DNA of 32,000 nt. It comes from an uncultured Lentisphaeria bacterium. GTDB taxonomy: Bacteria; Verrucomicrobiota; Lentisphaeria; JABSQK01; JAJFLO01. The notes under the pieces are model-generated. The model had not been told where the DNA came from, did no database searches, and saw only the letters and a list, made by a program, of their open reading frames with translations. The position numbers were made by a program, and so were the translations under genes. Below, piece after piece: positions 3,656 to 30,119 of this stretch. The stretch is from assembly GCA_951812855.1 (NCBI GenBank), contig CATOSW010000001.1, positions 1 to 32,000 on the forward strand, given 5' to 3'. Numbering within the stretch: position 1 is the stretch's first letter; every line of letters begins with the position of its first letter.

Positions 3656-3680
3656 ATTTAAGGAATCGACCACTTACTGC

Positions 3681-5013: not shown

Positions 5014-5016
5014 ACG

Positions 5017-7178: not shown

Positions 7179-7419
7179 GGAAGGCATGTCCTTAGACTTT
7201 GAATTCCCCCAGTCTGTTCGTTTCCTTGGGACCAGCGGAGACGGTCGAACCAGAAGTGTTTCTGTTGACGGGTGTCGAATTCGGCACTTGCCCCCATTGG
7301 CGTCTTCTTGGAGGGTTTGTCACGTTGGGAGGCGGGAACCCGAAAGCATTGATGGGTGCCAACTCGGTGAGGCAGCGCTTTGAACTCTGTTCCCGCCCGG
7401 CGAAGCAATTCCTCGAATC

Positions 7420-8547: not shown

Positions 8548-8696
8548 CTGGAGCCCCACGGGATAAGGACATTGGACAAAACGCAAAACGCCATAAGCTC
8601 TCAGGTATTCTGGTTCCGATATTGCCGGGCAACCATTTATTGCCTACGGTTACTTTCTTCGGAGTTGAACTGATTCGTGATTCCGCGAGAAACTCT

Positions 8697-9875: not shown

Positions 9876-9878
9876 TCC

Positions 9879-10925: not shown

Positions 10926-11031
10926 AGCCATGCCTTCTTCTGAGACCGGCCGCTTTAATTCCTTGGGCACGTGGTGGGAAGAGGCATTTCCTAAAACACA
11001 ATACGAGAAATCGCCGCCAGGCCAAAACCAA

Positions 11032-11307
11032 ATGCTCATTCTAATCGCATATGACGTGACCCAACCCAGGCGCTTGGCCCGAGTCGCTCGAGTTTGCGAG
11101 GATTACGGGGTAAGAGTTCAGTACAGCATCTTCGAATGCCATCTTGAAGCCGAACGGTTTCAAGAATTTTGGAAGCGCTTGCTCGCGGAAATCGACGAGG
11201 AGGAAGACCGGCTCGTCGCTTACAAACTGGATGCGAAAAACGCCCAACGTACGATGACAGCCGGATCAATGGTTTGCTCTGAAAAAGTCGTGTGCTATTT
11301 GGTTTGA
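11032..11307 (+). CDS. cas2: Cas2
   Basis: MLILIAYDVTQPRRLARVARVCEDYGVRVQYSIFECHL... is the canonical Cas2 ferredoxin fold start. The alternative upstream start at 10930 adds 34 non-conserved residues. Confidence 0.92.
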   Translation: MLILIAYDVTQPRRLARVARVCEDYGVRVQYSIFECHLEAERFQEFWKRLLAEIDEEEDRLVAYKLDAKNAQRTMTAGSMVCSEKVVCYLV

Positions 11308-11514
11308 GAGGGATTGATGAGTTTCAGGTAACGAAGTGGAAGCGCCGAATATGGGCCTTTCGCAACCTAAGTTGTAAGTCCTTGAAGACAAAGGCCATAT
11401 GTTGAATTTTCACACTAGTTTACCCCTTGGCAACCTGGCGGAAACTACATTTTTTGACCGTCGTTGCCTACTCGTGTCTTGCGCCCTTGATGATCAAGGG
11501 CTTACATACCCGGA
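11308..11514 (+). promoter_or_regulatory. CRISPR leader (cas2-proximal)
   Basis: 207-bp non-coding stretch between cas2 and repeat 1. The degenerate repeat sits at the opposite end of the array. A 17-bp palindrome CCCTTGATGATCAAGGG lies at 11484-11500. No promoter could be assigned confidently. Confidence 0.6.
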
Positions 11515-12387
11515 GCCGTGAACCGGCTGAACGCCGAAAGGCATTGGAGACCGCTGGACCTCCGACCGACGATCGACGAGCCATTCCCGGAAGCCGTGAA
11601 CCGGCTGAACGCCGAAAGGCATTGGAGACAGGATATCCCTGGATATCCTCCATGAGATCCAGCAGGGGCCGTGAACCGGCTGAACGCCGAAAGGCATTGG
11701 AGACGTCGACGTCCTCCCCGCCGCCGCCCTGGACGAGGCCGGGCCGTGAACCGGCTGAACGCCGAAAGGCATTGGAGACATGCCCCCGTAGGAGCCGACC
11801 CCGATGCCCCGGCCCCCGGAGGCCGTGAACCGGCTGAACGCCGAAAGGCATTGGAGACCGGCTGTTTCCGCGCCCTCCTTCACGAGATCGTCGACGGCCG
11901 TGAACCGGCTGAACGCCGAAAGGCATTGGAGACGGGAGGGGGTCTGCCCCCTCCCCGCCTGTCTCTTCCTCGCCGTGAACCGGCTGAACGCCGAAAGGCA
12001 TTGGAGACGACTCGACGAAGGATGAAATAGGAATCTTCATTCCGCGCCGTGAACCGGCTGAACGCCGAAAGGCATTGGAGACGACCGGGTAAGTCGACTC
12101 GACGAAGGATGAAATAGGAATGCCGTGAACCGGCTGAACGCCGAAAGGCATTGGAGACTGGCGTCTGAGCATTCCGACCTTACCATCGCGGCGGCTGGCC
12201 GTGAACCGGCTGAACGCCGAAAGGCATTGGAGACGACCGGGTAAGTCGACTCGACGAAGGATGAAATAGGAATGCCGTGAACCGGCTGAACGCCGAAAGG
12301 CATTGGAGACGAGAACCTCTCGTCCGCCGCCATCTGCTTGTGCTCCTCCTGCCGTGAACCGGCTGAACGCCGAAAAACAATCTGGAA
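11515..12387 (+). CRISPR. CRISPR array: 12 repeats of 37 nt (GCCGTGAACCGGCTGAACGCCGAAAGGCATTGGAGAC) and 11 spacers of 37-42 nt
   Basis: Repeat starts: 11515, 11593, 11668, 11743, 11822, 11897, 11972, 12046, 12122, 12198, 12274, 12351. Repeats 1-11 are identical. Repeat 12 keeps only the first 25 nt. The repeat has a GCC-GAAA-GGC mini-hairpin followed by an ATTGGAGAC 3' tag region, consistent with + strand transcription. Confidence 0.97.
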
Positions 12388-12429
12388 GGGCAAGCGGACA
12401 AACTATTTGACTAGTTGGAGAAGGAAGGC

Positions 12430-12748
12430 GGGATAAGGAATCTTTTATCGCCATCCCCCGGTTCAGGTTCCGCGCCAGCATCGATCAATTTTAAAGCGCG
12501 AGGGGTAAAAATTTAAGGAGCGAACGCGCAAACGCATCACCAAAAACACCGGTTTTACTGGTTTTTTTTCACGAAACGAGGAGATTTTGATTGCGGAGCG
12601 AACGTAGCGAACGCGCAAACGCATCGCCAAAACCAGCGATTTTACTGGGGTTTTTGCGAAATTGGCAGAAAAATGAGGCGCGCGAACGGAGCAAACCGAC
12701 GTAATCTTTGCGCTTGATGCTACTCCTCGTTCGGCTATTGCACAGGGG
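12430..12748 (+). promoter_or_regulatory. cos-like packaging region upstream of terS (conserved 91-bp block plus two ~50-bp direct repeats with dyad cores)
   Basis: Direct repeats at 12521-12570 and 12608-12657 share the core CCAAAAAC..CG.TTTTACTGG(GG)TTTT. The right arm has equivalent repeats at 21402-21444 and 21488-21530, with perfect dyads AAAAAC-N3-GTTTTT. Its position immediately 5' of a Nu1-like terS mirrors lambda cosN/cosB. Confidence 0.45.
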
Positions 12749-13222
12749 ATGAAGAGACGGAAATTAATGACGCCGAGCGAGCTCGCGGACGAATTCAAGC
12801 TGGCCTCGAGCACTGTCCGAAATAGGTTGAAGTCGGCGGGGGTCGCTCCCGTGTCACGCGGGTCCAATGGGCGCTGCTACCCCGCGAAAGCGGCCCGGAC
12901 GGCGTGTCGGGCGGTTCACCACAAGCGGCGCTCCCCAGCGAAAACTCCCGAAGAGAAGGACCTGCAGGAGCGCAAGCTTCTGAGGGAGTGCGAGAAACTC
13001 GAATTCGAACTGGCGGTCAAGCGGCGCGAGTATCTGCCGAAGGAGGAAACGCTGGAGTTCCTTGGACGCGCAATGGCCGAGTTGCGGGATCGACTGCTGA
13101 AAATCCCGGCGGAGTTGTCCGATCGACTGGACCCTCCACTCAAGGCCGAATTGGGCAAGGTCATTCGGCTGCAGCTCAACGATTTCGCGGCCAGAATGCA
13201 TGAGATCGCCGACGGACAGTGA
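12749..13222 (+). CDS. terS: Terminase small subunit, Nu1-like (HTH N-terminus)
   Basis: 157 aa. The N-terminal HTH is MTPSELADEFKLASSTVRNRLKSAGVAPVSRGSNG, followed by a coiled region LRECEKLEFELAVKRREYLPKEE and LLKIPAELSDRL. This is the same layout as lambda Nu1. It lies immediately upstream of a GpA-like terL. Confidence 0.72.
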   Translation: MKRRKLMTPSELADEFKLASSTVRNRLKSAGVAPVSRGSNGRCYPAKAARTACRAVHHKRRSPAKTPEEKDLQERKLLRECEKLEFELAVKRREYLPKEETLEFLGRAMAELRDRLLKIPAELSDRLDPPLKAELGKVIRLQLNDFAARMHEIADGQ

Positions 13223-14976
13223 ACCTGCCCAAGCCATCGCGAAGACGCTTGGGCGGATGGCCACAGTCGCGCATTGCGACGACATTCTCAGCTGGCTAGA
13301 TCAAACGCTGTATCTGCGCGACTCCCCCTACGGCAACCGGTTCAAGTCGGCGGTGTCGCCTTGGCTTCACGAGCCGTTGCGGGCCCTCACCGATCCGAAC
13401 GTGCGGGAGGTCTGGATTATGGCCTCGGCCCAGGGGGGCAAAACAATCGTCCTGCTCTCGCACCTGCTCTACTCATTGGTCCATGACCCGGGGCCCACAA
13501 TGGTGGTCCTGGACACCGACAAGGCGGCGGTCGCCTGGTGGGAGAGCAAGCTCGATCCGACGCTGAAGCATTGTCCGGCCTTGGTCGGCAGGCTGCCGCA
13601 AAACCCGGAGCGCTACAAGAAGTCGGCCATTCTGATGCCGGACGCGACCGTGCGGATCGGTCCGGCCAACAACTCGTTCCTACGCAGCCATTCGATTCGC
13701 TATCTCGCCTGCGACGAGGTATCGAAATGGCCGGTCGGCAACATCGCCAACGCCAAAGCTCGCTGTCGCCAGTTCGGGGATCGGAAGATGGTCTTTTGTT
13801 CGACGCCGCTGGACGTCGACAACGAGTTCACTGTCGGATGGGAATCCGGCAGCCGCGAGTATTGGGCCTTTGGTTGTTTGGGGTGCGGCGAGCCTTTCGC
13901 GCCAAAATTCCGCGAGCACATGCGCTGGGATTCAGGGCCGGAGGTCAAGCCCAACGGCGTCTGGGACATCGTGGGCGCGGCGGCCACGGCGCGCCTGGTT
14001 TGTCCTCGGTGTGGCCACGAACACCCCCACACAGCAGAAACCATCGCTCGGCTCAACGCGGGCGGTCGATACGTGAGCGACCGATCAATCGGAGCGGTGC
14101 GGTCGTTCCATTTCTCCTCACTCGTATTGAGCCCAAAAGTCTGTAGCTGGTCCGAGCTGGTCGCCGAATTCCTGTCCGCGAAGATCAGCGCGGAGATTCG
14201 TCCGCCGGCCCTGCTGAAGGAATTTGTCAACTTGCAGTTGGCCGAACCCTGGGACGACGTCGTCCCGACCGAGGAGAAAATCAGCGTCAGCGATACCCCA
14301 GTCCAGAGCCCTGCTGATTTTGACGGTCGATGTTCAGAAGGACCATTTTTGGGCGCTCGTTCGGGCCTGGTCCAAATCGGGAAACTCCACGCTCATACGC
14401 TTTGCACGGGTGGGGTCCTGGGACGAGGTGGCGTCGGTCGCGACGAGCGAGGGCGTTGAGAACAAATATGTCTTCGCGGACTCGCGATTCGACACCGCGA
14501 CGGTGGAGATGGAGTGCGCCCGGCGCGGATGGCGGACCTTGCAAGGCTCCAGTCGAGACTCGTTCAGGTGGACAGCGCCCAAGGGGAGTCCACGCGGGAA
14601 ATCCAGCGAACGCTATTACTCGCCTCTCCGCCGCTGCTACGTCGCCCGCTCGCGGGACCGGCGACAAACGGCGGTCATCACCCAGCGCATCGTGTTGGCG
14701 AGCAATCCCCTCAAAACGATGGCACATCGCCTAAGCGTGGGGCGGGGAGGCGTCCGTTGGGAAACCAGCAACCTCGCCTTGGGCCAGTGGCAGGATGACT
14801 ATCTGCATCAAATGAAGGGCGAACAGTTGCGGCGGGTGGGAACGGAGTATGTGTGGAAGAGGATCCACGACAACCACGCCTTCGATTTGGAATACTACCA
14901 AGTCGGCCTGGCTCTGGCGGCGGGCATTAGATTTGACAGCGGAACTCGTGCGGCCAAGGTGAGCGGCGATGGCTAG
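13200..14976 (+). pseudogene. terL: Terminase large subunit, GpA-like, split by one frameshift near 14296-14312
   Basis: The ORF 13200-14459 carries the Walker A-like IMASAQGGKTIVLL and ACDEVSKWP motifs. The ORF 14224-14976, in another frame, continues with LLILTVDVQKDHFWALVRAW (GpA nuclease-domain motif). The frame switch falls at a CCCC/CCC run, so a sequencing indel cannot be excluded. Confidence 0.8.
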
Positions 14977-15342
14977 AGCAAGACAGGCATGGTAGATCCG
15001 GCAAATGCTCGGGGGCTAAGTACGACTTGCTCTCCCAGGAGCACCAGCTCGTCGAGATTAGCGACATGGCCTTTGGTTTGATTACCCTTGGCTCCGGAGC
15101 CTTGCCTTTTTGTTTCTCCTTCTCCATTGGCGTCTCATGGAGAAAGCCGCTTGTTTATTAAATTCTTAATAATTAAAGACCCGCCCTCCTCAAGCCGTCA
15201 CAGAAGCGGTTTCCCTTTGTTTTAGGGCTTTTTTGCTCGAAACCGCCGCTTGAATCACCGCAACGACCACATGACAAAGGGGCTCCTTTGATAGAGGGTG
15301 GGGTTCGGAACGAGGCGGGTCCCCTAGGCCCCCCCTACGGCT

Positions 15343-16026
15343 TCAAAGGCTCGGGACCTTCCCTCGCTTCAGGATACGCCGCACAGAAGATCGCCCGATG
15401 TTCAGCTGGCGGGCGATCGCCGCTTGGCTGTGCCCTTCCTGGTGCAGGGCGGTGATTTGGTCGGCCACCAGAATCACGGTCGCCGGTCGGCCATGGGGAC
15501 GGCCCGCTTTTCGCGCCCGGGCGATGCCCGCCCTCACCCGTTCACGCAAAATCTCCCGCTCGAACTCCGCGAACACCGCCAGCAAGCCGGCCATGGCCCG
15601 CCCCCCAGGGGTCGTCAGATCCAAGGCTTCGGTCACCGAGATGAAACCGACCTCCAGGGCGGAGAGTTCCTGCAGCGTTCCCACCAAGTCAGGGAGGGAA
15701 CGGCCCCATCGGTCCAGGCGCCAGACCAAGATCGCGTCCACCTCCCGGCGCCGAGCGGCTTTCATCAGCGCTTCCCGTTCGGGCCGGTCAGTTGCTCCGG
15801 AGCCGATCTCCGCGATTTCGGTTACCGATTGCCACTCACGGCTCCGAACGTATCGCCGCAGGGCGTCCAACTGCAGGGGCAATGTCTGCTGGTCATGGGT
15901 GGAGACCCGGGCGTAGAGAGCGGCTCGAACGGGCCTTTGAGCCCCCTGGCCATAAACCTCCGGGCCGGAGGCCGCCAAAAGGGGCCGATTTCCGAGGGTT
16001 TCGAGGGCCGGGGAAGGCATGGCCAA
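15343..16026 (-). CDS. Small serine recombinase (resolvase/invertase family)
   Basis: AALYARVSTHDQ (catalytic Ser), VWRLDRWGRS, LAVFAEFEREILRERVRAGIARARKAGRPHGRP and a C-terminal HTH GHSQAAIARQLNIGRSSVRRIL. Confidence 0.92.
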   Translation of the reverse strand: MAMPSPALETLGNRPLLAASGPEVYGQGAQRPVRAALYARVSTHDQQTLPLQLDALRRYVRSREWQSVTEIAEIGSGATDRPEREALMKAARRREVDAILVWRLDRWGRSLPDLVGTLQELSALEVGFISVTEALDLTTPGGRAMAGLLAVFAEFEREILRERVRAGIARARKAGRPHGRPATVILVADQITALHQEGHSQAAIARQLNIGRSSVRRILKRGKVPSL

Positions 16027-16287
16027 AAACTAGTGTTTCAGGCCAGATCCGTCAAATCGACCGTCTCCCGGGAATGGCGATCAGGGATGACGCCCGTTTT
16101 CGCGCGAGAATGCCACTAGGAACGCGCTTGCTTTCAGCGTGATGGATCTTTCATCCATGTGGGGCTATTGCGTTCGCGGGAGATTCCGGAGCGGAGATTC
16201 GGCTCCTTTCCTTAGCTCGCAGGATGGTTGCGCAGGATAGTCGACATCCCATTATCGAGAAGAGCGCGCCGCTTTGCGGGTTACGCC

Positions 16288-16590
16288 CTAGTCTTTAGCA
16301 CCATTGGCACGCTTCTGTTCTTCTTCCTCCATCTCTAGTCTTTCAAAAATAAATTGCCGGACTTCTTTCGCCACCTCTCGGAGAACAGCACAGAGGTGCT
16401 CGTCCGTGGTGTAGCGTCGGACCTGGATTTCCACCTCAGAATCTGGCAAAACCGCCCATGACACAATTAGGCCACCGAGATCGCCGGGATCCATTGACAA
16501 CTCTCGTGCCGCTCCCTCGACAATCTCAGAAATGGCGACACACCCGCTCCGGGCCATCGACCGACCAATCGAACGAATTGAAGCTCCCAT
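16288..16590 (-). CDS. Hypothetical protein (100 aa)
   Basis: ORF co-oriented with the recombinase operon, with an acidic C-terminus. No recognisable motif. Confidence 0.4.
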   Translation of the reverse strand: MGASIRSIGRSMARSGCVAISEIVEGAARELSMDPGDLGGLIVSWAVLPDSEVEIQVRRYTTDEHLCAVLREVAKEVRQFIFERLEMEEEEQKRANGAKD

Positions 16591-16735
16591 CGCCCCACTA
16601 TCTCACAACTCTTCAAAAAATGCATGTTTTTGTGAAAGGACCTCACACGCCGCTCACGCGCCCCGTGAAACGAGAACGCCAAAATCACCTTTGGAAAGAT
16701 TCTAACTCCTCTGAAACGTGGCCCCGTAGCTCAAA

Positions 16736-17459
16736 TCAACCCTTCCACGGGGAGGCTCCGTTCTTCGGCGGACAGGCCTGCTTTCGCTCCATGCGCCCGG
16801 CTTGCCCGGCCGCCAGTTCCTCAAACCGCCGCAGAGCATCGGAAAGCGTTCTGCAAGTCCATCCATGGGTTCCCCAGTGGAGGGTCGTCGGCAGACGCTC
16901 ATCGCCCGTCCGCTGAACCGTGCCGTCGGGGAAGCGATAGTCTTTCTCGGTCCGACGTACGCGCATGACATCATAGCCCATAACCTCCGCATTCGAATGC
17001 ACCACCGAATACATCACCGCGTCCCCGGACCGAGCCACCAGGTTACGCTCCAATCCGTGGCGCCGGTAATGAATGGGAATGCGTTTCACGGATGTTATGA
17101 CGCCCGGTCGCGGGTTTTCCCACAAAGGGATGACCGAGAGTTTAAGGCGACTCCAAAAACGCTCACGCGCCGACTCACAAGCCTCGCCGCCGTCGGCGGC
17201 GATAAGCGGAGCGATTGACGGGCTCCCGGAATCGCCGTCGGACTCGGGAGGGCTTCTGGAACGTCTGGGGCGTGAGTTGGGGATTCTGTTGGGCGATGAC
17301 AATGAAGCCCTTGCCACAAGTGGGACATGTGACGCGCCAGCCCAGGCGGGACCCATCCAGGTAGAGGAGGGCTCCACAGCACCGACACCCGGTGCGATAG
17401 CTCAAGCCGTCTCCAGCGTGAGATGGGGCGGGATCAAGCGCTTGGTTCCTTTCTTTCAT
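16736..17459 (-). pseudogene. Zinc-ribbon protein fused (via an apparent frameshift) to an uncharacterised C-terminal domain
   Basis: ORF 17175-17459 starts with CRCCGALLYLDGSRLGWRVTCPTCG (CxxC...CxxC) and then turns low-complexity. ORF 16736-17377 in another frame has a low-complexity N-terminus followed by a protein-like domain (RFWSRLKLSVIPLWENP...MYSVVHSNAEVMGYDVMRV...). The 203-nt overlap suggests a single gene with a frameshift. Confidence 0.4.
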
Positions 17460-17615
17460 GGGAATAGCTTATCTGGAGAGAGCCACGCGCTCGATTTCAA
17501 AACGCCCTCAAAACGGGCCTGACCAAGTCCACTGACTAAGCAGTGAGGCTTGCCCATCCCCTCGCTTCCGAACAGGCTCCAGCGGATACCAGACCCCGCA
17601 ACAGACCTCACAATC

Positions 17616-17789
17616 ATGAAACGCGACAAAGCGACCACTCGGACTCTTGAGCGCCTCCGCCAACGAGCGGATCGGGATAAACAACGGGTCGAGGCATTGG
17701 AAGCGGGTGCAACCCAAGCGCTGGACTGTTTGAGTAGCGGACAGCCGCAAACCGCGATCCGGGTACTTCGGCACCTCTTGGATTCATGA
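17616..17789 (+). CDS. Small helical hypothetical protein
   Basis: MKRDKATTRTLERLRQRADRDKQRVEALEAG... Its stop overlaps the ssb start (ATGA at 17786), which suggests translational coupling. Confidence 0.45.
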   Translation: MKRDKATTRTLERLRQRADRDKQRVEALEAGATQALDCLSSGQPQTAIRVLRHLLDS

Positions 17790-18247
17790 ATTACAACAAA
17801 GTCGTTCTCGTGGGGCGTTTGACCCGCGACCCCGAAGTGCGCTACACCACCAAAGGCGTGGCGGTGGCCACTTTTGGCCTCGCCTGCAACCGGCGTTACC
17901 GGGCTCGGGACGGCCAGCCCGCCGAGGAAACCACCTTCGTCGATGTCACCGCCTTTGGCGACACGGCCGAAGAGATGAGACAATCGCTGTCCAAGGGCTC
18001 CCCCGTCCTTCTGGAAGGCCGTCTGCGTAACGAATCATGGGTGGATCGCAACGGGCACAAGCGCAGCTTCACCAAAGTCCTTTGCGAATCCTTCAACCTC
18101 CTCGCCTCCCGAAGGGGTGACACCTCGCCCCCATCCCAGAGCCCCTCCCCCTCAAGCCCGCCGAAGCCTCAGACCGAAGCGACGAGCCCGAGCCAACCCG
18201 AGACCAGAGCCCCAAAAGGGGGCGAAGAAGACGATGTGCCCTTTTAA
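17786..18247 (+). CDS. ssb: Single-stranded DNA-binding protein
   Basis: OB-fold start MNYNKVVLVGRLTRDPEVRYT, a Pro/Ser-rich linker and an acidic tip EEDDVPF (canonical DDDIPF-type tail). Confidence 0.93.
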   Translation: MNYNKVVLVGRLTRDPEVRYTTKGVAVATFGLACNRRYRARDGQPAEETTFVDVTAFGDTAEEMRQSLSKGSPVLLEGRLRNESWVDRNGHKRSFTKVLCESFNLLASRRGDTSPPSQSPSPSSPPKPQTEATSPSQPETRAPKGGEEDDVPF

Positions 18248-18861
18248 CGCGGTGGCTTGCACGAGCGGAGGGAGCTATCGGGACGTCGGGAGATGGTGCC
18301 GAGGAGATGCGTTCCGCAATCCAGCCAGGGACCCCTGAAGAACGGATATCGCGAGCGGGCCACGAAACACAGTCTCACGGCGTTTTGCACTGATTGCCGC
18401 CCGGCAAGGCGATAACGGCTCTAGGGAAGGGCGCCGAGACCGGACGGGATGACCGAGCTCAGGACGCCGCCACGCGCGGGTCCAACCCGCCGCCCAAGTG
18501 CATCACGGACTTGCTTTGAATAACGGGCCTTGCTACTCTCGCACTCATGTTAGCCCAGAATTAAAGCTGAAAACCTCCGCCCTTTTTCAAGAACGGAGGT
18601 TTTCGCAAAGCCGCTGCGAATACACAACGCCCTCTTTTTCGTAAAAAAGAGCGTAGTATCCGAGGGGGCCGAAGGCAACCGGAAAATGAGACTACGCGAA
18701 AAAATATTTTTAGAGACCGAGAGGGCGGGAACACCCCTTTTTCTTACCTCGCCTTCAGGTACGGTGCCTTTCTTTCGCGTTCCGAACCGTCTTTTCCCTG
18801 ATTTCCGCGGGTTTTTCGCCCTTGGTCCCACGACAAAACCCGTGAACCGGAAGGGGGACGT

Positions 18862-19521
18862 GTGAGCAAAGGCGCTCCCACCGGTCTGCCCTCCGACCCG
18901 AGGCAGCTGCGAACGAAACTGCACATCGTCCGGGTCGGTGACTGCTTTCAAAAGACCCGCACCATCGCCAAGAAGGTCCGGCTGGCCATTAAAACCGTGA
19001 CCGCCACTCTGTGCGCCCTCGTCCAAGGCGGTTGGGTCACCGCCACCCCTCGAGAAGGGAAAACCACCCTCTACCGCCAGCGGAATGCCAAGGAATACTA
19101 TTTCCCGGCCTGGATCGACGACCTGGGCATGACCGCCCTTCGGACCCTTGTCGTCGGCCTTTTCTTGGTCGCCCCTACCATCTCCCGACGTCAAATCGCT
19201 AAGACCCTCCACATTTCGGTCTCCACCGTCGACCGGGCCATCGCCGACCTCGTGGCGCGGGGGTATCTCCGCATCGAGCACACTCCCGGCAAGGCCAACC
19301 GGTATGTGCTGGTCTACAACGGGGAGGACTTCATTCGCAACACTGCGTTGGTCAAAACCGAGTGCTCGAAAAAGAAAAACCAGAAACGGAAGAACAAAGA
19401 AGAGCTAAAACCCCAGCATCACCCCATCCTTGACCGCCAGCCGGCTCCGACTGAAAAGGTCGAACAAGCCGTCTCTTTTCTAAGCGGTCTCAAAGGCCAA
19501 CTCAGCGCTCTTGGACCGTAG
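18862..19521 (+). CDS. Protein with two winged-helix/MarR-like HTH modules; possible replication initiator or regulator
   Basis: GTG start. KTRTIAKKVRLAIKTVTATLCALVQGGWV and SRRQIAKTLHISVSTVDRAIADLVARGYLRIEH. It is preceded by an AT-rich, hairpin-rich 600-bp non-coding region (18250-18860). Confidence 0.45.
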   Translation: MSKGAPTGLPSDPRQLRTKLHIVRVGDCFQKTRTIAKKVRLAIKTVTATLCALVQGGWVTATPREGKTTLYRQRNAKEYYFPAWIDDLGMTALRTLVVGLFLVAPTISRRQIAKTLHISVSTVDRAIADLVARGYLRIEHTPGKANRYVLVYNGEDFIRNTALVKTECSKKKNQKRKNKEELKPQHHPILDRQPAPTEKVEQAVSFLSGLKGQLSALGP

Positions 19522-19548
19522 GTCCGCCCCTTTTCGCCAGCCGCTTTA

Positions 19549-19585
19549 GCCGGTGCCGCAGTCCTGGGCGGTAACCGGTTTTTTG
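19549..19585 (+). terminator. Rho-independent terminator candidate after the wHTH gene
   Basis: GCCGGTGCCGC...GCGGTAACCGG stem followed by TTTTTT (19579-19584). Confidence 0.45.
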
Positions 19586-19907
19586 CGTTTGGAGAAGGCC
19601 ACACTCCCGTCCAAAGAGACTCAAAAGCGTCTTTTCCCCCTCTCCGGCTCCCTCTGAGCCCTGATTTCACGTTCCAGTCAGCCCACCCAAGCGACCCGAT
19701 CCTAAAGCGAAGGTGGTTTCAAGCCCTCTCAGGGCTAACCCTACCTCAAAAACGTTTTTACCCTGGCTCAAATAGAGTTCTAACCCTAGGTCAAAAAGGG
19801 GGTCCTAAGGGTTTATTATAAGTGTACACCCCTGGAAGACCGACTGATCCCACCCTTCACTCCCCCTCCAGGGCCTCGGAAATTTTTTTAAGGATTTTTT
19901 TTTAAGG

Positions 19908-19945
19908 GTCGGCGGGCCTGGGCGCTCCGCGCCCGCCGACTTTTT
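19908..19945 (+). terminator. Strong GC-stem terminator with no obvious upstream gene
   Basis: GTCGGCGGGC (19908-19917) pairs with GCCCGCCGAC (19931-19940), followed by TTTTT. The nearest + strand CDS ends about 390 nt upstream. Confidence 0.6.
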
Positions 19946-20318
19946 CCGGAGGGAAAGCGCTCGCGTTGGCGAGTGATTCAATCCCTTCCACAAGGGTTAG
20001 GAGACCCATGCGGAATTCCCAACGGGAATGACTGTCACAAATGCCTCCCTCCGAATGGTGTTTGAACGTCTGTGAGGCTCGTTGGAAAGGTTTCCAGGGT
20101 AAGGAATCTCTTTTCCGGGAACGGTCGATGGGTCCGAGCCAACCCCATCGCTCTCCTTTACACGCACCGAAAAAAATCGACCTATCCGAAATACCGTATA
20201 TCCGAAATCCGGAATTCGTGGATGCGCGACGGATGAAGAAAAGCGGCAGCGGGCTAGACAAAACCGGAGCCGTAAAAAAATACTGGCTCCGAAAATCCGG
20301 AAACCTGATAGGAGCAAA

Positions 20319-20504
20319 ATGCCCCAAAAAAGAAAATCCGGTAACTATCAGCTTTGCGTCGAACTCTATCCCGAATTGTACGACGCGCTTGGGCTAAAGG
20401 CCGCGCTACACCGCCGCTCCGTGAGCCAGGAGGTCCGGGTGGCTCTGGCCGATTATTGCCATCCTCCCTCCCGTCAACCCGATGCCAGCCAAGAAAAAAG
20501 CTAA
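20319..20504 (+). CDS. Ribbon-helix-helix (CopG/Arc-like) DNA-binding protein
   Basis: 61 aa. YQLCVELYPELYDALGLKAALHRRSVSQEVRVALADY fits the beta-strand/helix/helix RHH pattern. Confidence 0.5.
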   Translation: MPQKRKSGNYQLCVELYPELYDALGLKAALHRRSVSQEVRVALADYCHPPSRQPDASQEKS

Positions 20505-20692
20505 GGCCAAGGCTCGGGGGCGCCCCCGTAAGCTCGATCCGCTCGCGAAGATTCCAGAAGAAATCCAGGCGTGTGTGCTCTCGGACATCTCTTCCGACAA
20601 GCGGCTCCGTCTTGGGGGCGGCTATCCCAGACGGGGACGTCCAGAGCCATCCGCTCGCCTTCGCGACCAAGGCCATGGTCCAGCCGTCGCGG

Positions 20693-20792
20693 AGCCAAGG
20701 CGACACCGCCGACTTGAACCGGCTGCAATATGGCGAGTCGCGCATATTGCAGCGTTTGATTCAGTCAACATGAGAATGGCGTCACAATGCGA
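20693..20792 (-). pseudogene. terL 5' fragment (second copy), frameshifted and truncated
   Basis: SHCDAIL... and RDSPYCSRFKSAVSPWL match the left-copy AHCDDILSWL...RDSPYGNRFKSAVSPWL. The two pieces are in different frames. Homology ends at 20693. Confidence 0.7.
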
Positions 20793-20832
20793 GGTTTGGA
20801 GAGCGCGGGCGCAGGAAGCAAAAGAAGGAAGA

Positions 20833-21309
20833 CTAGCCCTCTTCTTCGATCCATTCGAGGCTGTCAGCGGCCTCGTTGATTCGCGTCCGGATCAGATCGT
20901 TGAGTTCAGCCTTGAGCGAGGGGTCGAGACGGTCTAAGAGTTCGGCGGGGATCTTCAAAAGCCGATCCCGCAAAGCGGTAATGACGCCACGCCGCCCTCG
21001 TGGATGACCGACCGCGGCAGATAATCGCGCCGCTTGACCGCCAGTTCGAACTCGAGTTTCTCACACTCCCTGGAGGAGCTTGCGCTCTTGTAGGTCCGTC
21101 TCTTCGTGGGTTTTGGCCGGGGAGCGCCGCTTGTGGTGAACCGCTCGACAGGCCGCCCATACCGTTTTCGCGGGGTAGTGTCAGGCCCCTTTGGCCCCAC
21201 GAGACAAAGGGGCAACGCCATTGCGCTTCAGGCGTCCGTGGATGGTTTTGATGGGCAATCCCAGAGCTTCAGCCAGCTGGTTCACGGTCACCGATTGTGG
21301 TCTCTTCAT
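20833..21309 (-). pseudogene. terS second copy, inactivated
   Basis: It starts MKRPQSVTVNQLAEALGLPIKTIHGRLKRNGVAPLSRGAKGA, then hits an in-frame TGA. Homology continues (YPAKTVWAACRAVHHKRRSPAKT..., ECEKLEFELAVKRRDYLP, ALRDRLLKIPAELLDRLDPSLKAEL) only if at least two frame changes are allowed. Confidence 0.75.
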
Positions 21310-21620
21310 CCCCAGTGGGATAGGACAACGAAGCGCACTCTCAAACAAAATCGTAGGAGTGGAACGCTCAGAATGGAACATTGGGCGAACCGGTTTTTTC
21401 GAGAAAACCCCAGCAAAAACGGCGTTTTTGACGGTTCAGGTTCTTAGAATGGAAGTCTTAAAAAAGCGGATTTCCACCTGGATTCTTCAAAATCCCCAGT
21501 AAAAACGCTGTTTTTGGCGCGTTAGGTTCTTAGCTTCTCCTTAAATTTTTACCCCTCGCGCTTTGAAATCGATCGGTGCTGGCGCGGAACCTGACCCGGG
21601 GGATGGCGATAAAAGATTCC

Positions 21621-21863
21621 TTATTCCCTAGGCTCCTGACCCTCGCTCAGATCCGGTCGGGAGTCTTTCAAGGTGGGCATCGCCTCCAGCCACTCTCGCA
21701 CCTTGCTAATGACGGGGTCTTTCAGGGGGCGAGCCTTGATGATACGAGCCACAGTGCTGGAGGCGACACCCACCTTGAAAGCGAATTCACGTTGCGAAAG
21801 GCCCAGTGTCTCCAGGGCTTCCTCAACTTGACGTCCCAATTGAATTCGTTCATCCCTGCGCAT
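21621..21863 (-). CDS. XRE/Cro-CI family HTH regulator
   Basis: LGLSQREFAFKVGVASSTVARIIKARP. The start is probably the internal Met at 21863 (the track ORF extends to 21959). Divergent from the ParB-like gene. Confidence 0.75.
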   Translation of the reverse strand: MRRDERIQLGRQVEEALETLGLSQREFAFKVGVASSTVARIIKARPLKDPVISKVREWLEAMPTLKDSRPDLSEGQEPRE

Positions 21864-22062
21864 AGCTTGCTTTCGGTTGTTTGGCTTTCTGACTTCGTGG
21901 TCCCGCCAGCTTTGTGACCTTGATCTCGGAGGCGGGTCAAGCGCAATAGGGTTTCGCAATCCGACAGCGTCTCTTCATCCCGAAAAGCCTTTTCAGCCTT
22001 CTGTGCTATCGTTAGTTTTCCCTGCGTAACCCACGCACTCAAACGAGAACCGACGCTCCATC

Positions 22063-22944
22063 ATGGCAAGGAAGAGGCCCGAAGACGAGTTTCCCTTTAA
22101 CGAGATCGTTCGAGTCTCTTTGAGCGAAATCTCCCCGGAAAGCAGCATCAACGTTCGGCGAACCGGAATCGAAGAAAACGTCGAACTGGTCAAATCATCG
22201 ATTCAGGCCCATGGCTACTGGCCGGATGCTCCCGTGGCGCTACGGCCCCATCCCGACCCGCAGTCAGCCTATGCCTATGAAAGCGTGACCGGTCAGTGCC
22301 GGATGAAGGCTTCGTTTGCGCTGAACCTCAAGGAAATTCCGGCCATCATCGTCGATTTGGACGACGACGCGGCCCTGAAACGCTCGTTCATGGAGAACTC
22401 CAAGCGTGGGGCCTTATCCTTTCCCGACTGTACTTACTGGGTGGAAAGAAAATACAACGAACTCATGACACAGGGAATGACGAGTCAGGAGGCGTTTGAG
22501 CAAACCGCGGCCTTTTGGGATCTCACGGTGCCAAAGGCTGAGCAATACTTCACCCTGCACGCACTGCCATCCGAACTCAAAGAGATGGTGGAGCGTAAGG
22601 AATTACCGCAGAACGCCGCCCTGGCCATCGTGGAGAGTTGTCGTAACCAGTTCGACCTCAAGCAAGGCGAAGAGGCCATGAAAGAACGGGCCGAATGGTT
22701 CTGCGCCCAGGACCGGGAGCAGCGAAAACTGGCCCGCAAGGCAATGCGCGCGAGCGGACACAACGCGAGTCCGGAGGACGTGAGCCGCAAATTCGAGGAG
22801 CTGACCAGCCGGGACCATAGCACCATCCCCGTCACCCTCCCCGCCGAATCCCAGGAAAAGCTGATCCAATACGGGCAGGATCGGGGCATCTACGAACCGG
22901 CGGCCATTATCAGTAACATCGTGGCCCAAACCCTAAGGGATTGA
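22063..22944 (+). CDS. ParB-like protein (ParB/Srx N-terminal domain + HTH)
   Basis: ISPESSINVRRTGIEENVELVKSSIQAHGYWPDAPVALRP (ParB box-like), then LPSELKEMVERKELPQNAALAIVES (ParB HTH-domain pattern). Confidence 0.68.
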   Translation: MARKRPEDEFPFNEIVRVSLSEISPESSINVRRTGIEENVELVKSSIQAHGYWPDAPVALRPHPDPQSAYAYESVTGQCRMKASFALNLKEIPAIIVDLDDDAALKRSFMENSKRGALSFPDCTYWVERKYNELMTQGMTSQEAFEQTAAFWDLTVPKAEQYFTLHALPSELKEMVERKELPQNAALAIVESCRNQFDLKQGEEAMKERAEWFCAQDREQRKLARKAMRASGHNASPEDVSRKFEELTSRDHSTIPVTLPAESQEKLIQYGQDRGIYEPAAIISNIVAQTLRD

Positions 22945-23687
22945 TCTCCCCCCTCTTGCTCGTGACAGAAACCCAGGCACGGGCCGTTCTGGGCGATGTG
23001 ACCGGTCATAACCCAACCGTGGTCCTCGAAGCCCTCGCCTGCCAGCCGCCTTGCGACACGTTTGAGGAACTACTCAAGCTCCTGGGCCAGGAGCGGGCAG
23101 ACTTGAAAAGCGCCCACGGGAAAAAACTGCGCCGATGCCACCGTCTGACCCGTTTACCCAAAGGGATCCAGTGGAAGCTGATTCAAGGACAGATCCCGGT
23201 GGCGCAGGGCGAGTGCATCAGCCGCCTTCCCAGTGAAACCGACCAGTATGTCCTGGCGCTGGCCATCGTCAGCAGCCGCGAAAAACTGACCCTAGCTGAA
23301 TGTAAAAAGATTGTTGGGCTGGTTCTCCAAAAGCCCAACGGGAACGATCATCCTCTCACCATCCGGGAAGCCCTCGAACGGGTGGCCAGCGTTCGCTTCG
23401 ACAAGCGGCCTTACATGATGGATATCCTCAGTGTCCAAGAGTGGCTTGAGGTGACTCGGGAGGCGTGGACCCGCCACTTGGAGTGGGAAAGCTTCTGCCA
23501 CCTCCTGATCACGAGGAAAGCGAGCCTTCTCTCCGACATTGAGGCGGCCGAAACCCGTCTGTCCAATCTCGGGAGCGGTTTTGAATCGTTAAGAACGAAG
23601 ATTCAATCCGACATCAAAGACGTTGAAAGGCAGTTGTGCGCCATGGCGAAGGATTTGCGAAAACTCTCCGAAACGTCCGGAGACTGA
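22941..23687 (+). CDS. Hypothetical protein with a ParB-HTH-like segment
   Basis: TTG start overlapping the previous stop. LTRLPKGIQWKLIQGQIPVAQGECISRL resembles the ParB central domain. The C-terminus is coiled-coil. Confidence 0.4.
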   Translation: MISPLLLVTETQARAVLGDVTGHNPTVVLEALACQPPCDTFEELLKLLGQERADLKSAHGKKLRRCHRLTRLPKGIQWKLIQGQIPVAQGECISRLPSETDQYVLALAIVSSREKLTLAECKKIVGLVLQKPNGNDHPLTIREALERVASVRFDKRPYMMDILSVQEWLEVTREAWTRHLEWESFCHLLITRKASLLSDIEAAETRLSNLGSGFESLRTKIQSDIKDVERQLCAMAKDLRKLSETSGD

Positions 23688-24204
23688 TCCGCTCCAACGG
23701 GTTTCCTTTCCCTCGCTCGGCCAATATCTCCTCTGGTATTCGTAGCCCTTTGGCTTATGCGCCAAAAAAACCGAGGTCTCCGATAAACCCTGATAGAGAA
23801 AAATAACACGCTTGTAAATGGCCGCTCCAATCCAGGGCCCGGCCGACCCCTGGTTGGGGCGGGCGGTGCCGGGAGTCGGTTTTTAAAACAGGGAGCGTAA
23901 TCGGCAGGCATCCAACTAAAAACGCTTTCCTAAGAATCATGGAATGACAGGGAATCCAGCCACTTCGATAGGCCAAACGTGAATCCCTATTTTCCAGTGG
24001 CTTCGATCTAATCGCTGGATTCGCATGAGAGATCATCCTCTGCCGCTCCCATTTCCATCATCCCTTCGGTTCAGGCCAACAGTCTCCCCAATCATTCGCC
24101 TAAGCTTTCGGGCATTCCCTCGCGGTTTGACCACTCGGACAGCGCTAGCGACAACGGCTCTGCACGGCGTTGACCACCCATCACCTAAAAGGTAACCTGT
24201 TCCC

Positions 24205-26338: not shown

Positions 26339-26626
26339 GAGCGGCATACGCGGCACGCGGCTCCGGACCAGAGGCTGGCGGGCCATGGACGCCTTACAAC
26401 TTGGCTCAATGGGTTTCCAGAGCTTGACTTCGCCATCGGGGTGAATGTCTCATTGCACGTAAGCGACCTCTCCCCGACCCTTGGTCGGTTCAGAACCCCG
26501 CTCCGGTCCATCGGTGGCCCGCGACTCCCGGGCGGCACGGTTACGAACGCCTGATCCCCTGGCTTTTCTCTGACTGTGGGGTTTGGTTTTGCCGGGATCG
26601 AAGCGGTGTGGCATTCTCTCTTGGGT

Positions 26627-30118: not shown

Positions 30119-30119
30119 T

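What the first reader, a model, noticed from the sequence alone, without database searches (positions are those of the whole stretch)
12430..21628. Two diverged ~936-bp inverted arms, each a cos-terS-terL' packaging module, bracket a 7.3-kb segment that encodes a small serine recombinase
The region 12430-13366 and the reverse complement of 20693-21628 are homologous end to end.
- Content of each arm: a 91-bp outer block, two dyad-containing direct repeats, a Nu1-like terS, and the first part of a GpA-like terL.
- Conservation: the outermost 91 bp are nearly identical (4 substitutions and 1 indel by manual alignment). The inner part is much more diverged.
- State of the copies: the right terS has a TGA nonsense codon and at least 2 frameshifts, and its terL stops at a sharp breakpoint (20693). 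The left copy is nearly intact.

A head-to-head pair of packaging modules is not a normal prophage layout. A resolvase/invertase-type recombinase (15343-16026) sits between the arms. Possible readings are:
- an invertible segment, flipped by the recombinase or by RecA;
- an inverted duplication;
- two related cos-type elements inserted head to head.

Stronger conservation of the outer 91 bp than of the coding part suggests that block is under selection as a site.
Basis: partly seen in the sequence, partly recalled or inferred. Interest (0 to 1): 0.7.

Follow-up and report, generated by a model that had tools for sequence, protein, structure and literature searches.

The report
Two inverted phage packaging-start modules
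Two diverged, head-to-head copies of a lambda-type DNA-packaging start region (cos-terS-terL) sit on a ~35-kb plasmid-like element; they do not look like a flip-switch, but the conserved 91-bp end of each copy marks the edge of a hotspot where otherwise near-identical elements from one microbial community carry completely different defence systems, including three types of CRISPR-Cas.

Summary
12430-13372 aligns with the reverse complement of 20687-21627. The outer 91 bp are 94.5% identical and the rest 53-70%. Each arm is a lambda-type packaging module: conserved block, direct repeats, Nu1-like terS, GpA-like terL.

The invertible-segment reading is not supported:
- All 19 contig positions spanning the right junction, and all spanning the left, are collinear with the window.
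- The recombinase is a Tn3-type resolvase (68% to a TnpR). It has its own res-like 28-bp dyad beside its gene.
- That enzyme class selects against inverted sites.

New findings:
- The window belongs to a ~35-kb plasmid-like element with ParB, SSB, an O-like initiator and iterons. No virion genes were recognised.
- It occurs in dozens of contigs from one HiFi metagenome.
- Backbones identical over up to 18 kb carry type III-B, I-C or I-U CRISPR-Cas, an Ssp-like system or an LRR gene. The join is always at the block's outer edge (TAA|GGAATCTTTTAT).
- The "intact" left terL is also broken, by an out-of-frame deletion.
- A third diverged block lies at 20100.

Best reading: the block is the cosQ/cosN-like core of two cos sites joined by an old rearrangement, bordering a cos-adjacent defence hotspot like those of P2/P4.

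The parts
11515..12390 (+). CRISPR array (12 repeats of 37 nt, last one degenerate) ending the type III-B cargo (Cmr2-3-4-5-6-1, two CARF effectors, Cas1, Cas2 at 18-11307). This is the variable 'cargo X' that abuts the left arm.
12434..12520 (+). Left conserved block. It has an invariant 15-mer TAAGGAATCTTTTAT (12434-12448), a 13-14-nt hypervariable patch (~12449-12462) and a conserved core ...CAGGTTCCGCGCCAGCATCGATCAATTTTAAAGCGCGAGGGGTAAAAATTTAAGGAG. Proposed cosQ/cosN-like core of cos.
   Evidence: homology to contigs with unrelated cargo starts at 12426-12434
12519..12655 (+). Two 50-nt direct repeats (12519-12568, 12606-12655), each with a dyad CCAAAAAC..GGTTTTACTGG. Copy number is 1 or 2 among variants. 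Proposed cosB-like TerS-binding repeats.
   Evidence: (D7)
12749..13222 (+). terS (Nu1-like small terminase, 157 aa), intact.
   Evidence: phrog_57 8.5e-13; DUF1441 weak
13200..14459 (+). terL part 1: GpA ATPase domain ORF (419 aa). It runs out of frame after ~14318.
14224..14976 (+). terL part 2: GpA nuclease domain in the +1 frame (LTVDVQKD... from ~14320). The break is a ~10-codon deletion, not a multiple of three, relative to intact homologues.
15343..16026 (-). Small serine recombinase (Resolvase + HTH_7). The real start is probably ~30 codons downstream of the ORF start, judged from the alignment with the TnpR relative.
15935..16056 (-). res-like region. It has a 28-bp dyad TGGCCTGAAAC-ACTA-GTTTTTGGCCA (~16018-16045) and a second GTTTATGGCCAGGG motif (~15940-15955). 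Both are shared with the res region of a Tn3-family transposon. The switch from 100% to ~82% identity between backbone alleles falls in the left half of the dyad (~16043).
16288..19797 (.). Replication module of backbone type a: two unknown ORFs (-), SSB 17786-18247(+), lambda-O/DnaD-like initiator 18862-19521(+), and 23-bp iteron-like repeats 19735-19797. Backbone type b replaces it with a 637-aa protein plus a DnaB-like helicase.
20100..20190 (+). Third, diverged member of the block family. It starts with TAAGGAATCT and is followed by variant-specific short tandem repeats and a 61-aa RHH ORF (20319-20504).
20655..20850 (-). Right-arm terL' relic (about the first 75 codons, with a 36-bp internal deletion at ~20693).
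20833..21309 (-). Right-arm terS' pseudogene (TGA at 21183-21181, two frame changes). The same arm type has an intact 182-aa TerS in a sister contig (L007 17729-18277).
21404..21533 (-). Right-arm direct repeats (21404-21447, 21490-21533) with dyads.
   Evidence: D8, I5, I6, I8
21537..21623 (-). Right conserved block (inverted copy). Outside it, variants carry either an HTH_3 gene and ParB (as here) or a cupin gene.
   Evidence: (I2)
21621..22944 (.). Outside flank 'Y': Xre-type HTH ORF (-), whose TAA stop is the first 3 nt of the block motif, and a ParB_N partition-like gene (22063-22944, +).

Best explanation
The two arms are two lineage variants of a lambda-type packaging-initiation region (cos core, TerS-binding repeats, Nu1-like terS, GpA-like terL). 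An old rearrangement, a fusion or inverted duplication between related cos-bearing elements, joined them head to head. This happened on a ~35-kb circular, plasmid-like and possibly satellite-like element that has replication and partition genes but no recognisable virion genes.

The 91-bp block is proposed to be the part of cos read by the large terminase (cosQ/cosN-like). It would be common to both variants, as cosQ and cosN are common to lambda and phage 21. The direct repeats plus the TerS N-terminal HTH would be the variable recognition pair (cosB/Nu1-like).

The block's outer edge is the border of a cos-adjacent cargo hotspot. Co-circulating, otherwise identical elements carry different defence loci there. 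Exchange is most simply explained by homologous recombination among relatives. It may be helped by terminase-cut ends at cos and by resolution at res.

The serine recombinase is an orphan Tn3-type resolvase that works at its own res next to its gene (multimer resolution). It does not invert the segment between the arms.

Shown: homology, anatomy, junction positions, lack of inversion isomers, homology of the res dyad. Inferred: that the block is cos, that the repeats bind TerS, helper dependence, and the exchange mechanism.
For: Arm anatomy and identities. Gene families.

Relatives and element type:
- Intact relatives of terL (40-47% identity) lie in lambda-like head modules: terS, terL, gpW-like, portal, S49 protease.
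- The element has ParB, SSB, an O-like initiator and iterons.
- No structural-gene family was found in the genes I scanned or in the precomputed Pfam lists of the reconstructed ~35-kb unit.

Block as a junction:
- Nine junction types all join at TAA|GGAATCT.
- TAAGGAATCT occurs exactly three times per element and nowhere else in the loci.
- 66 of 91 block positions are invariant across the nine types. The variable ones cluster in one 13-nt patch.

Repeats and TerS: the I-C variant's left arm carries the right-arm-type block, repeat and TerS N-terminus, joined at ~12877 to the left-type remainder. So repeats and the TerS HTH travel together.

Backbone identity with different cargo: 0 differences over 14000-32000 between the III-B and I-C elements. 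In the I-U and LRR variants, identity resumes right after the patch.

No inversion isomers.

Recombinase: 68% identical to a Tn3-family TnpR. It shares a 28-bp dyad, and an allele-identity switch falls inside that dyad.

[quoted passage not shown] Hotspots adjacent to cos occur in P2/P4, with cos-end recombination proposed (PMC9122126). Elements with identical cores carry different defences (PMC13586616). Resolvase selects against inverted sites (PMC9943657).
Against: - No physical evidence that the block is cut. No cohesive ends were determined, and no contig end maps to the block.
- The block has no sequence similarity to lambda cos, and no relative outside one sample was found.
- Both terL copies are broken, so any packaging would need a helper terminase. 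No close full-length TerL is in the protein collection.
- The dyad core of the repeats is similar in both arm types, so a specificity difference is not demonstrated.
- A coding patch (12983-13039) is as conserved between the arms (95%) as the block. Patchy recombination could therefore also explain the block's similarity.
- A third block precedes a regulator gene rather than a terS, which fits a regulatory-element reading at least as well.
- The res exchange point rests on a single allele pair.
Confidence: 0.6

Rival explanations
1. The block family is a set of co-regulated promoter/operator regions, not cos. TAAGGAATCT and the dyad GGAATCT-N21-AGGTTCC bind an element-encoded regulator (for example the adjacent Xre-type HTH or the RHH protein). 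The A-rich 3' part (TAAAAAT) is a -10 element. Cargo junctions lie at the block's outer edge simply because insertions are tolerated only upstream of the promoter. This is not exclusive of the cos reading.
For: All three blocks lie upstream of, and point towards, an ORF or operon: terS-terL, the RHH ORF, and terS'. The third block is a true paralogue, yet it is not followed by terS. The variable patch sits between two conserved half-sites, as in a spacer of a dimer-binding site.
Against: The sigma-70 consensus scan finds no promoter in either block. The position of the block relative to the repeats and terS is what a lambda-type cos predicts (PMC4669245). A promoter would not need to be kept on the right arm, where terS' is dead, although that decay is recent.
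Confidence: 0.22
2. The blocks are recombination sites for the serine recombinase. Either 12434-21623 is an invertible segment (Hin/Gin- or beta/six-like), or the blocks serve as joints for site-specific cassette exchange that swaps defence cargo.
For: A small serine recombinase lies between inverted, well-conserved ~90-bp blocks. Junctions with unrelated cargo are base-precise at the block edge on both arms. A conserved 15-mer island lies between the unrelated cargo and the variable patch.
Against: - Zero inverted isomers among all contigs spanning the junctions.
- The recombinase groups with Tn3 TnpR and no invertase model reaches its cut-off.
- It has its own res-like dyad, which bears no resemblance to the block.
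- Resolvases disfavour inverted sites (PMC9943657).
- The outside flanks show no second half-site. In the I-C variant the swapped tract ends inside terL (~13600), not at the block.
Confidence: 0.07
3. The head-to-head arrangement is a neutral scar of one past rearrangement, and the right arm has no present function. The block's conservation only reflects the short time since it stopped being used, or patchy gene conversion.
For: The right terS'/terL' are decaying in different ways in different variants: intact terS in L007, a pseudogene here, a 64-codon relic in backbone b. Between the right arms of the window and L007, the block (3 differences in 91) is no better conserved than the rest (97%). 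Other patches between the arms reach 95% (I3).
Against: The block plus at least one repeat is retained in all three decay states, and the 15-mer is invariant in every copy. Left-type and right-type blocks keep fixed type-specific differences, so the similarity is not recent homogenisation.
Confidence: 0.1
4. Assembly artefact (fold-back chimera).
For: All data come from one assembly. One circular contig looks like a concatemer of variants.
Against: The arms are only 67% identical overall. The same arrangement recurs in at least 19 independent primary and alternate contigs with different flanks.
Confidence: 0.01

Closest known systems
Lambda-type cos region (cosQ-cosN-cosB, Nu1/TerS, gpA/TerL) and the lambda versus phage 21 specificity pair
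   Same: GpA-family TerL and Nu1-like TerS sit directly downstream of a ~200-300-bp non-coding region. That region has a highly conserved distal part and proximal repeats. Two variants share the distal part but differ in the repeats and the TerS N-terminal HTH, as lambda and 21 share cosQ/cosN but differ in cosB/Nu1 (PMC4669245). Repeat number varies (1-2), as with 'simple' and 'complex' cosB.
   Different: There is no sequence similarity to lambda cos. Nicking and cohesive ends are unproven. Both terL copies are broken. No portal or head genes follow. Two copies face each other on one replicon.
[quoted passage not shown] 2022, PMC9122126; PMC13586616)
   Same: A hypervariable, defence-rich locus lies directly next to cos. 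Elements with identical cores carry entirely different systems. A satellite-like element carries a packaging signal but no virion genes.
   Different: The packaging family is unrelated (lambda GpA/Nu1 type). The carrier is ~35 kb and plasmid-like, with ParB and its own replication module and no integrase seen. The cargo is 9-14 kb and includes complete type III-B, I-C and I-U CRISPR-Cas loci, which P2/P4 hotspots are reported to lack. A second, inverted cos-like block also has alternative outside flanks.
Tn3-family res/TnpR resolution module, used as a plasmid multimer-resolution system
   Same: A small serine recombinase (68% identical to a TnpR next to a Tn3-family tnpA) has a homologous 28-bp dyad immediately upstream of its gene. 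An allele boundary lies within that dyad, as expected of a site I crossover.
   Different: No tnpA and no Tn3-type terminal repeats are present. The three res subsites are not delineated. Activity is untested.
Invertible DNA segments (Hin/Gin/Cin/Min; P1 C segment with 0.6-kb inverted repeats) and beta/six of pSM19035
   Same: A small serine recombinase is associated with long inverted repeats whose outer ends are the best conserved part.
   Different: No second orientation was found. The recombinase is resolvase-like with its own site elsewhere. No hix-like crossover sites were identified. (The comparison with P1 and pSM19035 rests on my own knowledge, not on a test here.)
Phage-inducible chromosomal islands / SaPI-type satellites carrying their own terS or a helper's cos
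   Same: The element keeps an intact terS and cos-like sites while lacking a working terL and structural genes.
   Different: It looks extrachromosomal (circular contigs, ParB, initiator plus iterons). No integrase, att sites, capsid-remodelling genes or Rpp-like gene were recognised. No helper is identified.

Membership tests
Lambda-type cos packaging module | Large terminase of the GpA family with ATPase and nuclease domains | tested here: met
   GpA_ATPase 3e-33, GpA_nuclease, phrog_15 5e-61. The gene is split by an out-of-frame deletion.
Lambda-type cos packaging module | Nu1-like small terminase with N-terminal HTH, immediately upstream of and overlapping terL | tested here: met
   phrog_57 8.5e-13; DUF1441 and HTH weak; 12749-13222 overlaps terL by 23 nt.
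Lambda-type cos packaging module | cos upstream of terS, with conserved cosQ/cosN and TerS-binding repeats (cosB) | tested here: inconclusive
   The layout fits: a conserved block plus 1-2 repeats within 230-315 bp of the terS start. The repeats co-inherit with the TerS N-terminus. No binding or cleavage data.
Lambda-type cos packaging module | Staggered nicks giving cohesive ends | not testable with these tools
   Needs reads or virion DNA. No contig end falls in the block.
Lambda-type cos packaging module | Portal and head genes downstream of terL | tested here: not met
   A recombinase on the opposite strand follows terL. Relatives do have portal and protease genes.
Invertase-driven invertible segment (Hin/Gin type) | Both orientations present in a population | tested here: not met
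   0 inverted among 19 right-junction places and all left-junction places. Assembled contigs, not raw reads.
Invertase-driven invertible segment (Hin/Gin type) | Recombinase of the DNA-invertase subfamily | tested here: not met
   The Mpi invertase model scores 44.5 bits against a cut-off of 272. The closest annotated relative is a Tn3-family TnpR.
Invertase-driven invertible segment (Hin/Gin type) | Short inverted crossover sites at the segment borders, plus an enhancer | tested here: inconclusive
   The dyads in the repeats loosely recall hix half-sites by eye only. No enhancer search was possible.
Tn3-type res/resolvase module | Small serine recombinase with an N-terminal catalytic domain and C-terminal HTH_7 | tested here: met
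   Resolvase 1e-41, HTH_7 1.6e-7.
Tn3-type res/resolvase module | res with dyad subsites directly upstream of the resolvase gene | tested here: inconclusive
   One 28-bp dyad and a second half-site-like motif are homologous to those of the TnpR relative. Three subsites are not delineated.
Tn3-type res/resolvase module | Tn3-family transposase and 38-bp terminal repeats | tested here: not met
   No tnpA in the window or in the reconstructed element. The module is therefore an orphan.
cos-adjacent defence hotspot (P2/P4 kind) | Variable gene content directly next to cos among elements with near-identical cores | tested here: met
   Five cargo types at the left block. Backbones differ by 0-7 nt over many kb.
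cos-adjacent defence hotspot (P2/P4 kind) | Cargo consists of anti-phage systems | tested here: met
   Type III-B, I-C and I-U CRISPR-Cas; SspD 9e-111 with helicase, HATPase and PLD proteins. The LRR protein is of unknown role.
cos-adjacent defence hotspot (P2/P4 kind) | Homology to P2/P4 elements | tested here: not met
   A different terminase family. No DNA match in the phage or plasmid collections.
Phage satellite | Packaging signal present, virion structural genes absent | tested here: met
   No capsid, portal or tail family in the window ORFs scanned against Pfam and PHROGs or in the precomputed Pfam lists of the ~35-kb unit. Several ORFs remain unknown, and the unknown ORFs seen only in sister contigs were not scanned against PHROGs.
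Phage satellite | Mobilisation by a helper phage | not testable with these tools
   No helper identified. The nearest full-length TerL in 5.8 billion proteins is 47% identical.

The most novel reading that the evidence does not exclude
The TAAGGAATCT block family marks programmed exchange joints of a previously undescribed family of ~35-kb plasmid-like phage satellites. Terminase cutting at cos would produce ends that join between co-resident variants. A Tn3-type resolvase would then resolve the heterodimers at res. Together these form a two-site 'cut and swap' system that moves whole defence loci, including complete CRISPR-Cas systems of three types, between identical backbones. The two inverted cos sites, with different TerS/repeat types, would let the element be packaged by two helper specificities or in either direction.
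Probability: 0.15. Interest if true: 0.8.

Novelty: new variant of a known kind. Interest (0 to 1): 0.55.

Why it matters
Defence hotspots next to cos are known from P2 phages and P4 satellites. How the cargo is swapped there is unresolved, and those small elements do not carry CRISPR-Cas.

Here an unrelated, lambda-type packaging region on a larger plasmid-like element shows the same behaviour at base-pair resolution:
- Backbones with zero differences over 18 kb carry type III-B versus type I-C CRISPR-Cas.
- Nine junction types all join at one 15-mer.
- An allele boundary falls inside a res dyad.

This gives a natural population, in a single long-read metagenome, where the exchange mechanism could be tested directly. 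The candidates are cos ends, res and homologous recombination. It also shows that whole adaptive-immunity loci can be traded like small defence cassettes.

For the original question, this is a caution. Long inverted repeats plus a serine recombinase do not by themselves make an invertible switch.

Tried and rejected
1. **Structured RNA in the block.** No Rfam hit in the window. RNAalifold on the nine block types gave 0 compensatory pairs.
2. **Sigma-70 promoter or terminator in the blocks.** None convincing.
3. **Recurrence of the block outside the sample.** Exact and degenerate patterns found nothing in IMG/VR. The hits in JGI metagenomes and GTDB genomes were chance matches without flanking similarity.
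4. **CRISPR spacers targeting sister elements.** None of 19 distinct spacers from the III-B, I-C and I-U arrays hits any fetched locus.
5. **Resemblance of the protospacer of spacers 7/8/10 to the block edge and to the 21-bp array.** Not better than shuffled controls. The protospacer is absent from IMG/VR.
6. **TAAGGAA upstream of the recombinase (16208) as a fourth block.** No similarity beyond the 7-mer (z = 0.5). Part of the genome-wide TAAGGAA excess is stop codon plus Shine-Dalgarno.
7. **The ~165-bp repeat near some junctions as a boundary element.** It is an ordinary MITE with terminal inverted repeats and a 9-bp target duplication.
8. **The terL frameshift as a homopolymer error.** Rejected; it is a deletion relative to homologues.
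9. **The third block as the start of a third terS relic.** No TerS similarity downstream.
10. **tRNA or att-like origin of the block.** No tRNA or tmRNA in the window.

Full report
**Observation.**
The repeat finder reports inverted patches linking 12430-13372 to 20687-21627. A gapped alignment joins them into one end-to-end homology.

| Sub-region | Identity |
|---|---|
| Outer 91 bp | 86/91, no indel |
| Direct-repeat/intergenic part | 53% |
| terS | 67% |
| First ~57 codons of terL | 70% |

Each arm has the same anatomy: a conserved block, two ~50-nt direct repeats 86-87 bp apart that each contain a dyad, a Nu1-like terS, and the start of a GpA-like terL.
- terS matches phrog_57 (8.5e-13).
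- terL matches GpA_ATPase (3e-33) and phrog_15 (5e-61).
- A small serine recombinase (Resolvase 1e-41 plus HTH_7) lies at 15343-16026 on the minus strand.
- The right terS' has TGA at 21183-21181 and two frame changes, judged against an intact copy of the same arm type in a sister contig.

So the description is correct.

Four corrections apply:
1. The block has five substitutions and no indel.
2. The left terL is itself broken. Relative to intact homologues (...SPAD-KWEHEARRYM-TVDCQKD...), about ten codons are missing in a deletion that is not a multiple of three, exactly at the ATPase/nuclease linker. The nuclease domain continues in another frame.
3. 20693 is a 36-bp internal deletion, and the terL' relic continues to ~20655.
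4. The left arm begins ~40 bp after the last, degenerate repeat of a CRISPR array. That array closes a complete type III-B locus: Cmr2-3-4-5-6-1, Card1-like and Csx1-like CARF proteins, Cas1 and Cas2.

**What the window belongs to.**
The exact 419-aa TerL fragment is encoded on at least 23 contigs, and a 95% variant of the same length on five more. All come from one ENA assembly (ERZ18545485), whose contig names look like hifiasm output.

In those contigs the same terS, split terL and recombinase module is preceded by five different cargoes:
- type III-B CRISPR-Cas (as in the window)
- type I-C CRISPR-Cas
- type I-U/I-G CRISPR-Cas
- an Ssp-like phosphorothioate system (SspD 9e-111, plus a helicase, HATPase and PLD protein)
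- an LRR protein

Two inner backbones exist:
- Type a, as here: SSB, a lambda-O/DnaD-like initiator (phrog_391) and 23-bp iteron-like repeats at 19735-19797.
- Type b: a 637-aa protein and a DnaB-like helicase.

Outside the right arm, variants carry either an Xre-type HTH gene and ParB, or a cupin gene.

Walking outwards with further look-ups reconstructs a unit of ~35 kb. No capsid, portal or tail family was recognised in it. Copies occur in a 45-kb circular contig and at least three times, ~35.6 kb apart, in a 142-kb circular contig.

More distant TerL relatives with intact genes (40-47% identity) sit in ordinary lambda-like head modules: terS, terL, gpW-like, portal, S49 protease. The arms are therefore phage packaging modules detached from their structural genes, on a plasmid-like and possibly satellite-like replicon. 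The setting is not a prophage.

No annotated plasmid or phage shares DNA with 12430-20100 except at the recombinase gene.

**The block is a recurrent junction.**
Homology between the window and contigs with unrelated cargo starts at 12426-12434 in every case. Nine distinct junction types, from left and right blocks, all join at ...TAA|GGAATCTTTTAT.

The aligned blocks show three parts:
- an invariant 15-mer
- a 13-14-nt hypervariable patch
- about 60 nearly invariant bases ending in GGGGTAAAAATTTAAGGAG

The 10-mer TAAGGAATCT occurs exactly three times per element in every variant and nowhere else in the loci. The third copy, at 20100 on the plus strand, heads a diverged but significantly related block (0 of 2000 shuffles reach its score). 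That block precedes variant-specific short repeats and a small RHH ORF.

**How recent the swaps are.**
SNP maps show discrete patches of difference in otherwise identical sequence:
- The III-B window and the circular I-C element have no difference from 14000 to 32000. All 118 differences lie in 12877-13600.
- Against the I-U variant, the only differences in the left arm are 7 nt in the patch.
- Against the LRR variant, there are 6 nt in the patch, plus a diverged allele of the recombinase-upstream region.

So in some swaps the identity resumes immediately after the patch. In the I-C case the cargo came with its own block, repeat, TerS N-terminus and 5' terL, and the exchange ended inside terL.

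The I-C left arm carries the right-arm-type block, repeat and TerS N-terminal HTH, joined at ~12877 to left-type sequence. The repeats and the TerS DNA-binding end therefore travel together. The number of repeats varies between one and two.

**Is it a flip-switch?**
All 19 distinct contig positions spanning the right junction, and all those spanning the left, are collinear with the window. The assembly resolves many near-identical variants, so an abundant inverted isomer should have appeared.

The recombinase points the same way:
- It reaches no invertase model cut-off.
- Its closest annotated relative (68%) is a TnpR divergently transcribed from a Tn3-family tnpA on an Acidibrevibacterium plasmid.
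- The 42 bp just upstream of the window's recombinase ORF are homologous to that transposon's res region. They contain a 28-bp dyad, TGGCCTGAAAC-ACTA-GTTTTTGGCCA, and a second shared motif lies ~70 nt further on.
- Between two backbone alleles, identity switches from ~82% to 100% inside the left half of that dyad. A crossover at res site I would leave that pattern, but this is a single case.
- Tn3-type resolvases act on directly repeated res sites in one supercoiled molecule and select about a thousand-fold against inverted sites (PMC9943657).

The recombinase thus has its own site. It is best read as a multimer resolvase, not as an invertase acting on the arms.

**What the block most likely is.**
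In lambda-like phages, cos comprises cosQ, cosN and cosB upstream of Nu1. [quoted passage not shown] The 7-bp cosQ is highly conserved, parts of the cohesive-end sequence vary freely, and cosB may be complex or simple (PMC4669245).

The arms reproduce this pattern:
- a distal part common to both arm types
- proximal repeats and a TerS N-terminus that differ and co-inherit
- variable repeat number
- a short unconstrained stretch inside the conserved part

I therefore read the block as the TerL-recognised core of cos and the repeats as cosB-like. This is an inference from layout and family knowledge. No nick or end has been seen, and the block has no sequence similarity to lambda cos.

A regulatory reading (promoter/operator family) explains the third block at least as well, and it is not exclusive of the cos reading. 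A consensus scan found no sigma-70 promoter in the blocks. No RNA structure is supported.

**Why cargo changes at the block edge.**
[quoted passage not shown] Their authors note that these lack large systems such as CRISPR-Cas. They speculate that terminase-cut ends plus a second recombination event drive the exchange (PMC9122126). A later survey stresses that elements with identical cores carry different defences (PMC13586616).

The present element shows the same phenomenon in an unrelated packaging family. Its cargoes are much larger and include whole CRISPR-Cas loci.

The data here fit homologous recombination among co-circulating relatives: discrete diverged patches within identical sequence, and an endpoint inside terL. 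A possible contribution from res is suggested by the allele boundary in the dyad. They do not require the blocks to be recombinase sites.

**Why two inverted copies?**
The inner breakpoint of the right arm is shared by backbone-a variants, so the head-to-head arrangement arose once. The right arm is decaying differently in different lineages: an intact TerS in L007, a pseudogene here, a 64-codon relic in backbone b. The block and at least one repeat are always kept.

That is compatible with a second functional cos, for another helper specificity or for the opposite packaging direction. It is equally compatible with a young scar. Between two right arms, the block is no better conserved than its surroundings. 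I cannot decide between these two.

**Verdict.**
The 'invertible segment' interpretation is not supported. 'Two related cos-type modules head to head' and 'the block is a selected site' are supported.

The more interesting result lies in the context: a cos-adjacent hotspot that trades complete defence loci between otherwise identical ~35-kb plasmid-like elements in one community. I rate this a new variant of a known kind. Interest is 0.55. I give 0.15 probability to the stronger claim that cos cutting and res resolution together form a dedicated cargo-swap system, with dual cos sites.

Noticed in passing
window 18-12390: A complete type III-B CRISPR-Cas locus (Cmr2-3-4-5-6-1, a Card1-like CARF nuclease, a Csx1/NE0113 CARF protein, Cas1, Cas2) with an 11-spacer array. 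Spacers 8 and 10 are identical, and spacer 7 overlaps them by 29 nt, so three of eleven spacers come from one ~50-nt protospacer of unknown source. A sister contig (L012) duplicates a different spacer.
   Followed up: partly
L020:4667-4835; L007:9159-9303, 19711-19850, 20672-20833; L010:17207-17372; L017:6628-6794: A ~165-bp MITE (terminal inverted repeats CAGGGCAAACGCATCTAA...TTAGATGCGTTTGCCCTG). A ~9-bp target duplication is visible by comparing a filled site with an empty one. It is scattered through the sister elements, once 22 bp from a left block.
   Followed up: yes
contig ptg000387c (L007, L008, L009, L029): A 141,948-bp 'circular' contig holds at least three ~35.6-kb units of the element, each with a different cargo (LRR, type I-U, Ssp-like). 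It is either a real heteromultimer or an assembler walk through variant bubbles.
   Followed up: no
contig ptg000571c (L002, L017, L030): The 45,405-bp circular I-C element contains a direct repeat of at least 1187 bp (IS21 end plus cas3 start) 37.3 kb apart, with a 755-aa versus 783-aa Cas3. This suggests a partial second cas operon or a circularisation overlap.
   Followed up: no
window 29641-29797: A tandem array of 7.5 copies of a 21-bp unit (TTACCCAAAAGTCTCGTCGAC) lies downstream of a 992-aa DUF11/CLIPPER surface-protein gene (26576-29554). Its flank recurs ~95 bp upstream of the left block in the LRR-cargo variants. It may be a centromere-like or iteron site.
   Followed up: partly
window 19735-19797: 23-bp repeats (2.8 copies), ~210 bp downstream of the lambda-O/DnaD-like initiator gene. 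This is a likely replication origin inside the segment between the arms.
   Followed up: no
window ~12449-12462 and ~21596-21608: A 13-14-nt patch inside the otherwise invariant block differs at most positions between variants whose flanks are identical. The patch type goes with the cargo, not with the inner backbone. Cause unknown; it could be a free spacer, a cohesive-end interior or diversifying selection.
   Followed up: partly
window 16045-16225: The ~170 bp upstream of the res-like dyad exist as two alleles ~82% identical, embedded in sequence that is 100% identical on the gene side and unrelated beyond ~16225. The allele is independent of the replication-module type.
   Followed up: partly
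L007:1-7509, L014: One cargo is an Ssp-like DNA phosphorothioation defence set: a 1151-aa protein, SspD (9e-111), a PbeA-like helicase, an MzaB-like HATPase and a DrmC-like PLD nuclease.
   Followed up: partly
window 30221-30838 and sister loci: IS21 copies and fragments (IstA/IstB), a DDE_Tnp_1_4 gene and a UPF0236 transposase lie at or near the left side of the cargo regions in several variants. They might contribute to cargo turnover.
   Followed up: no
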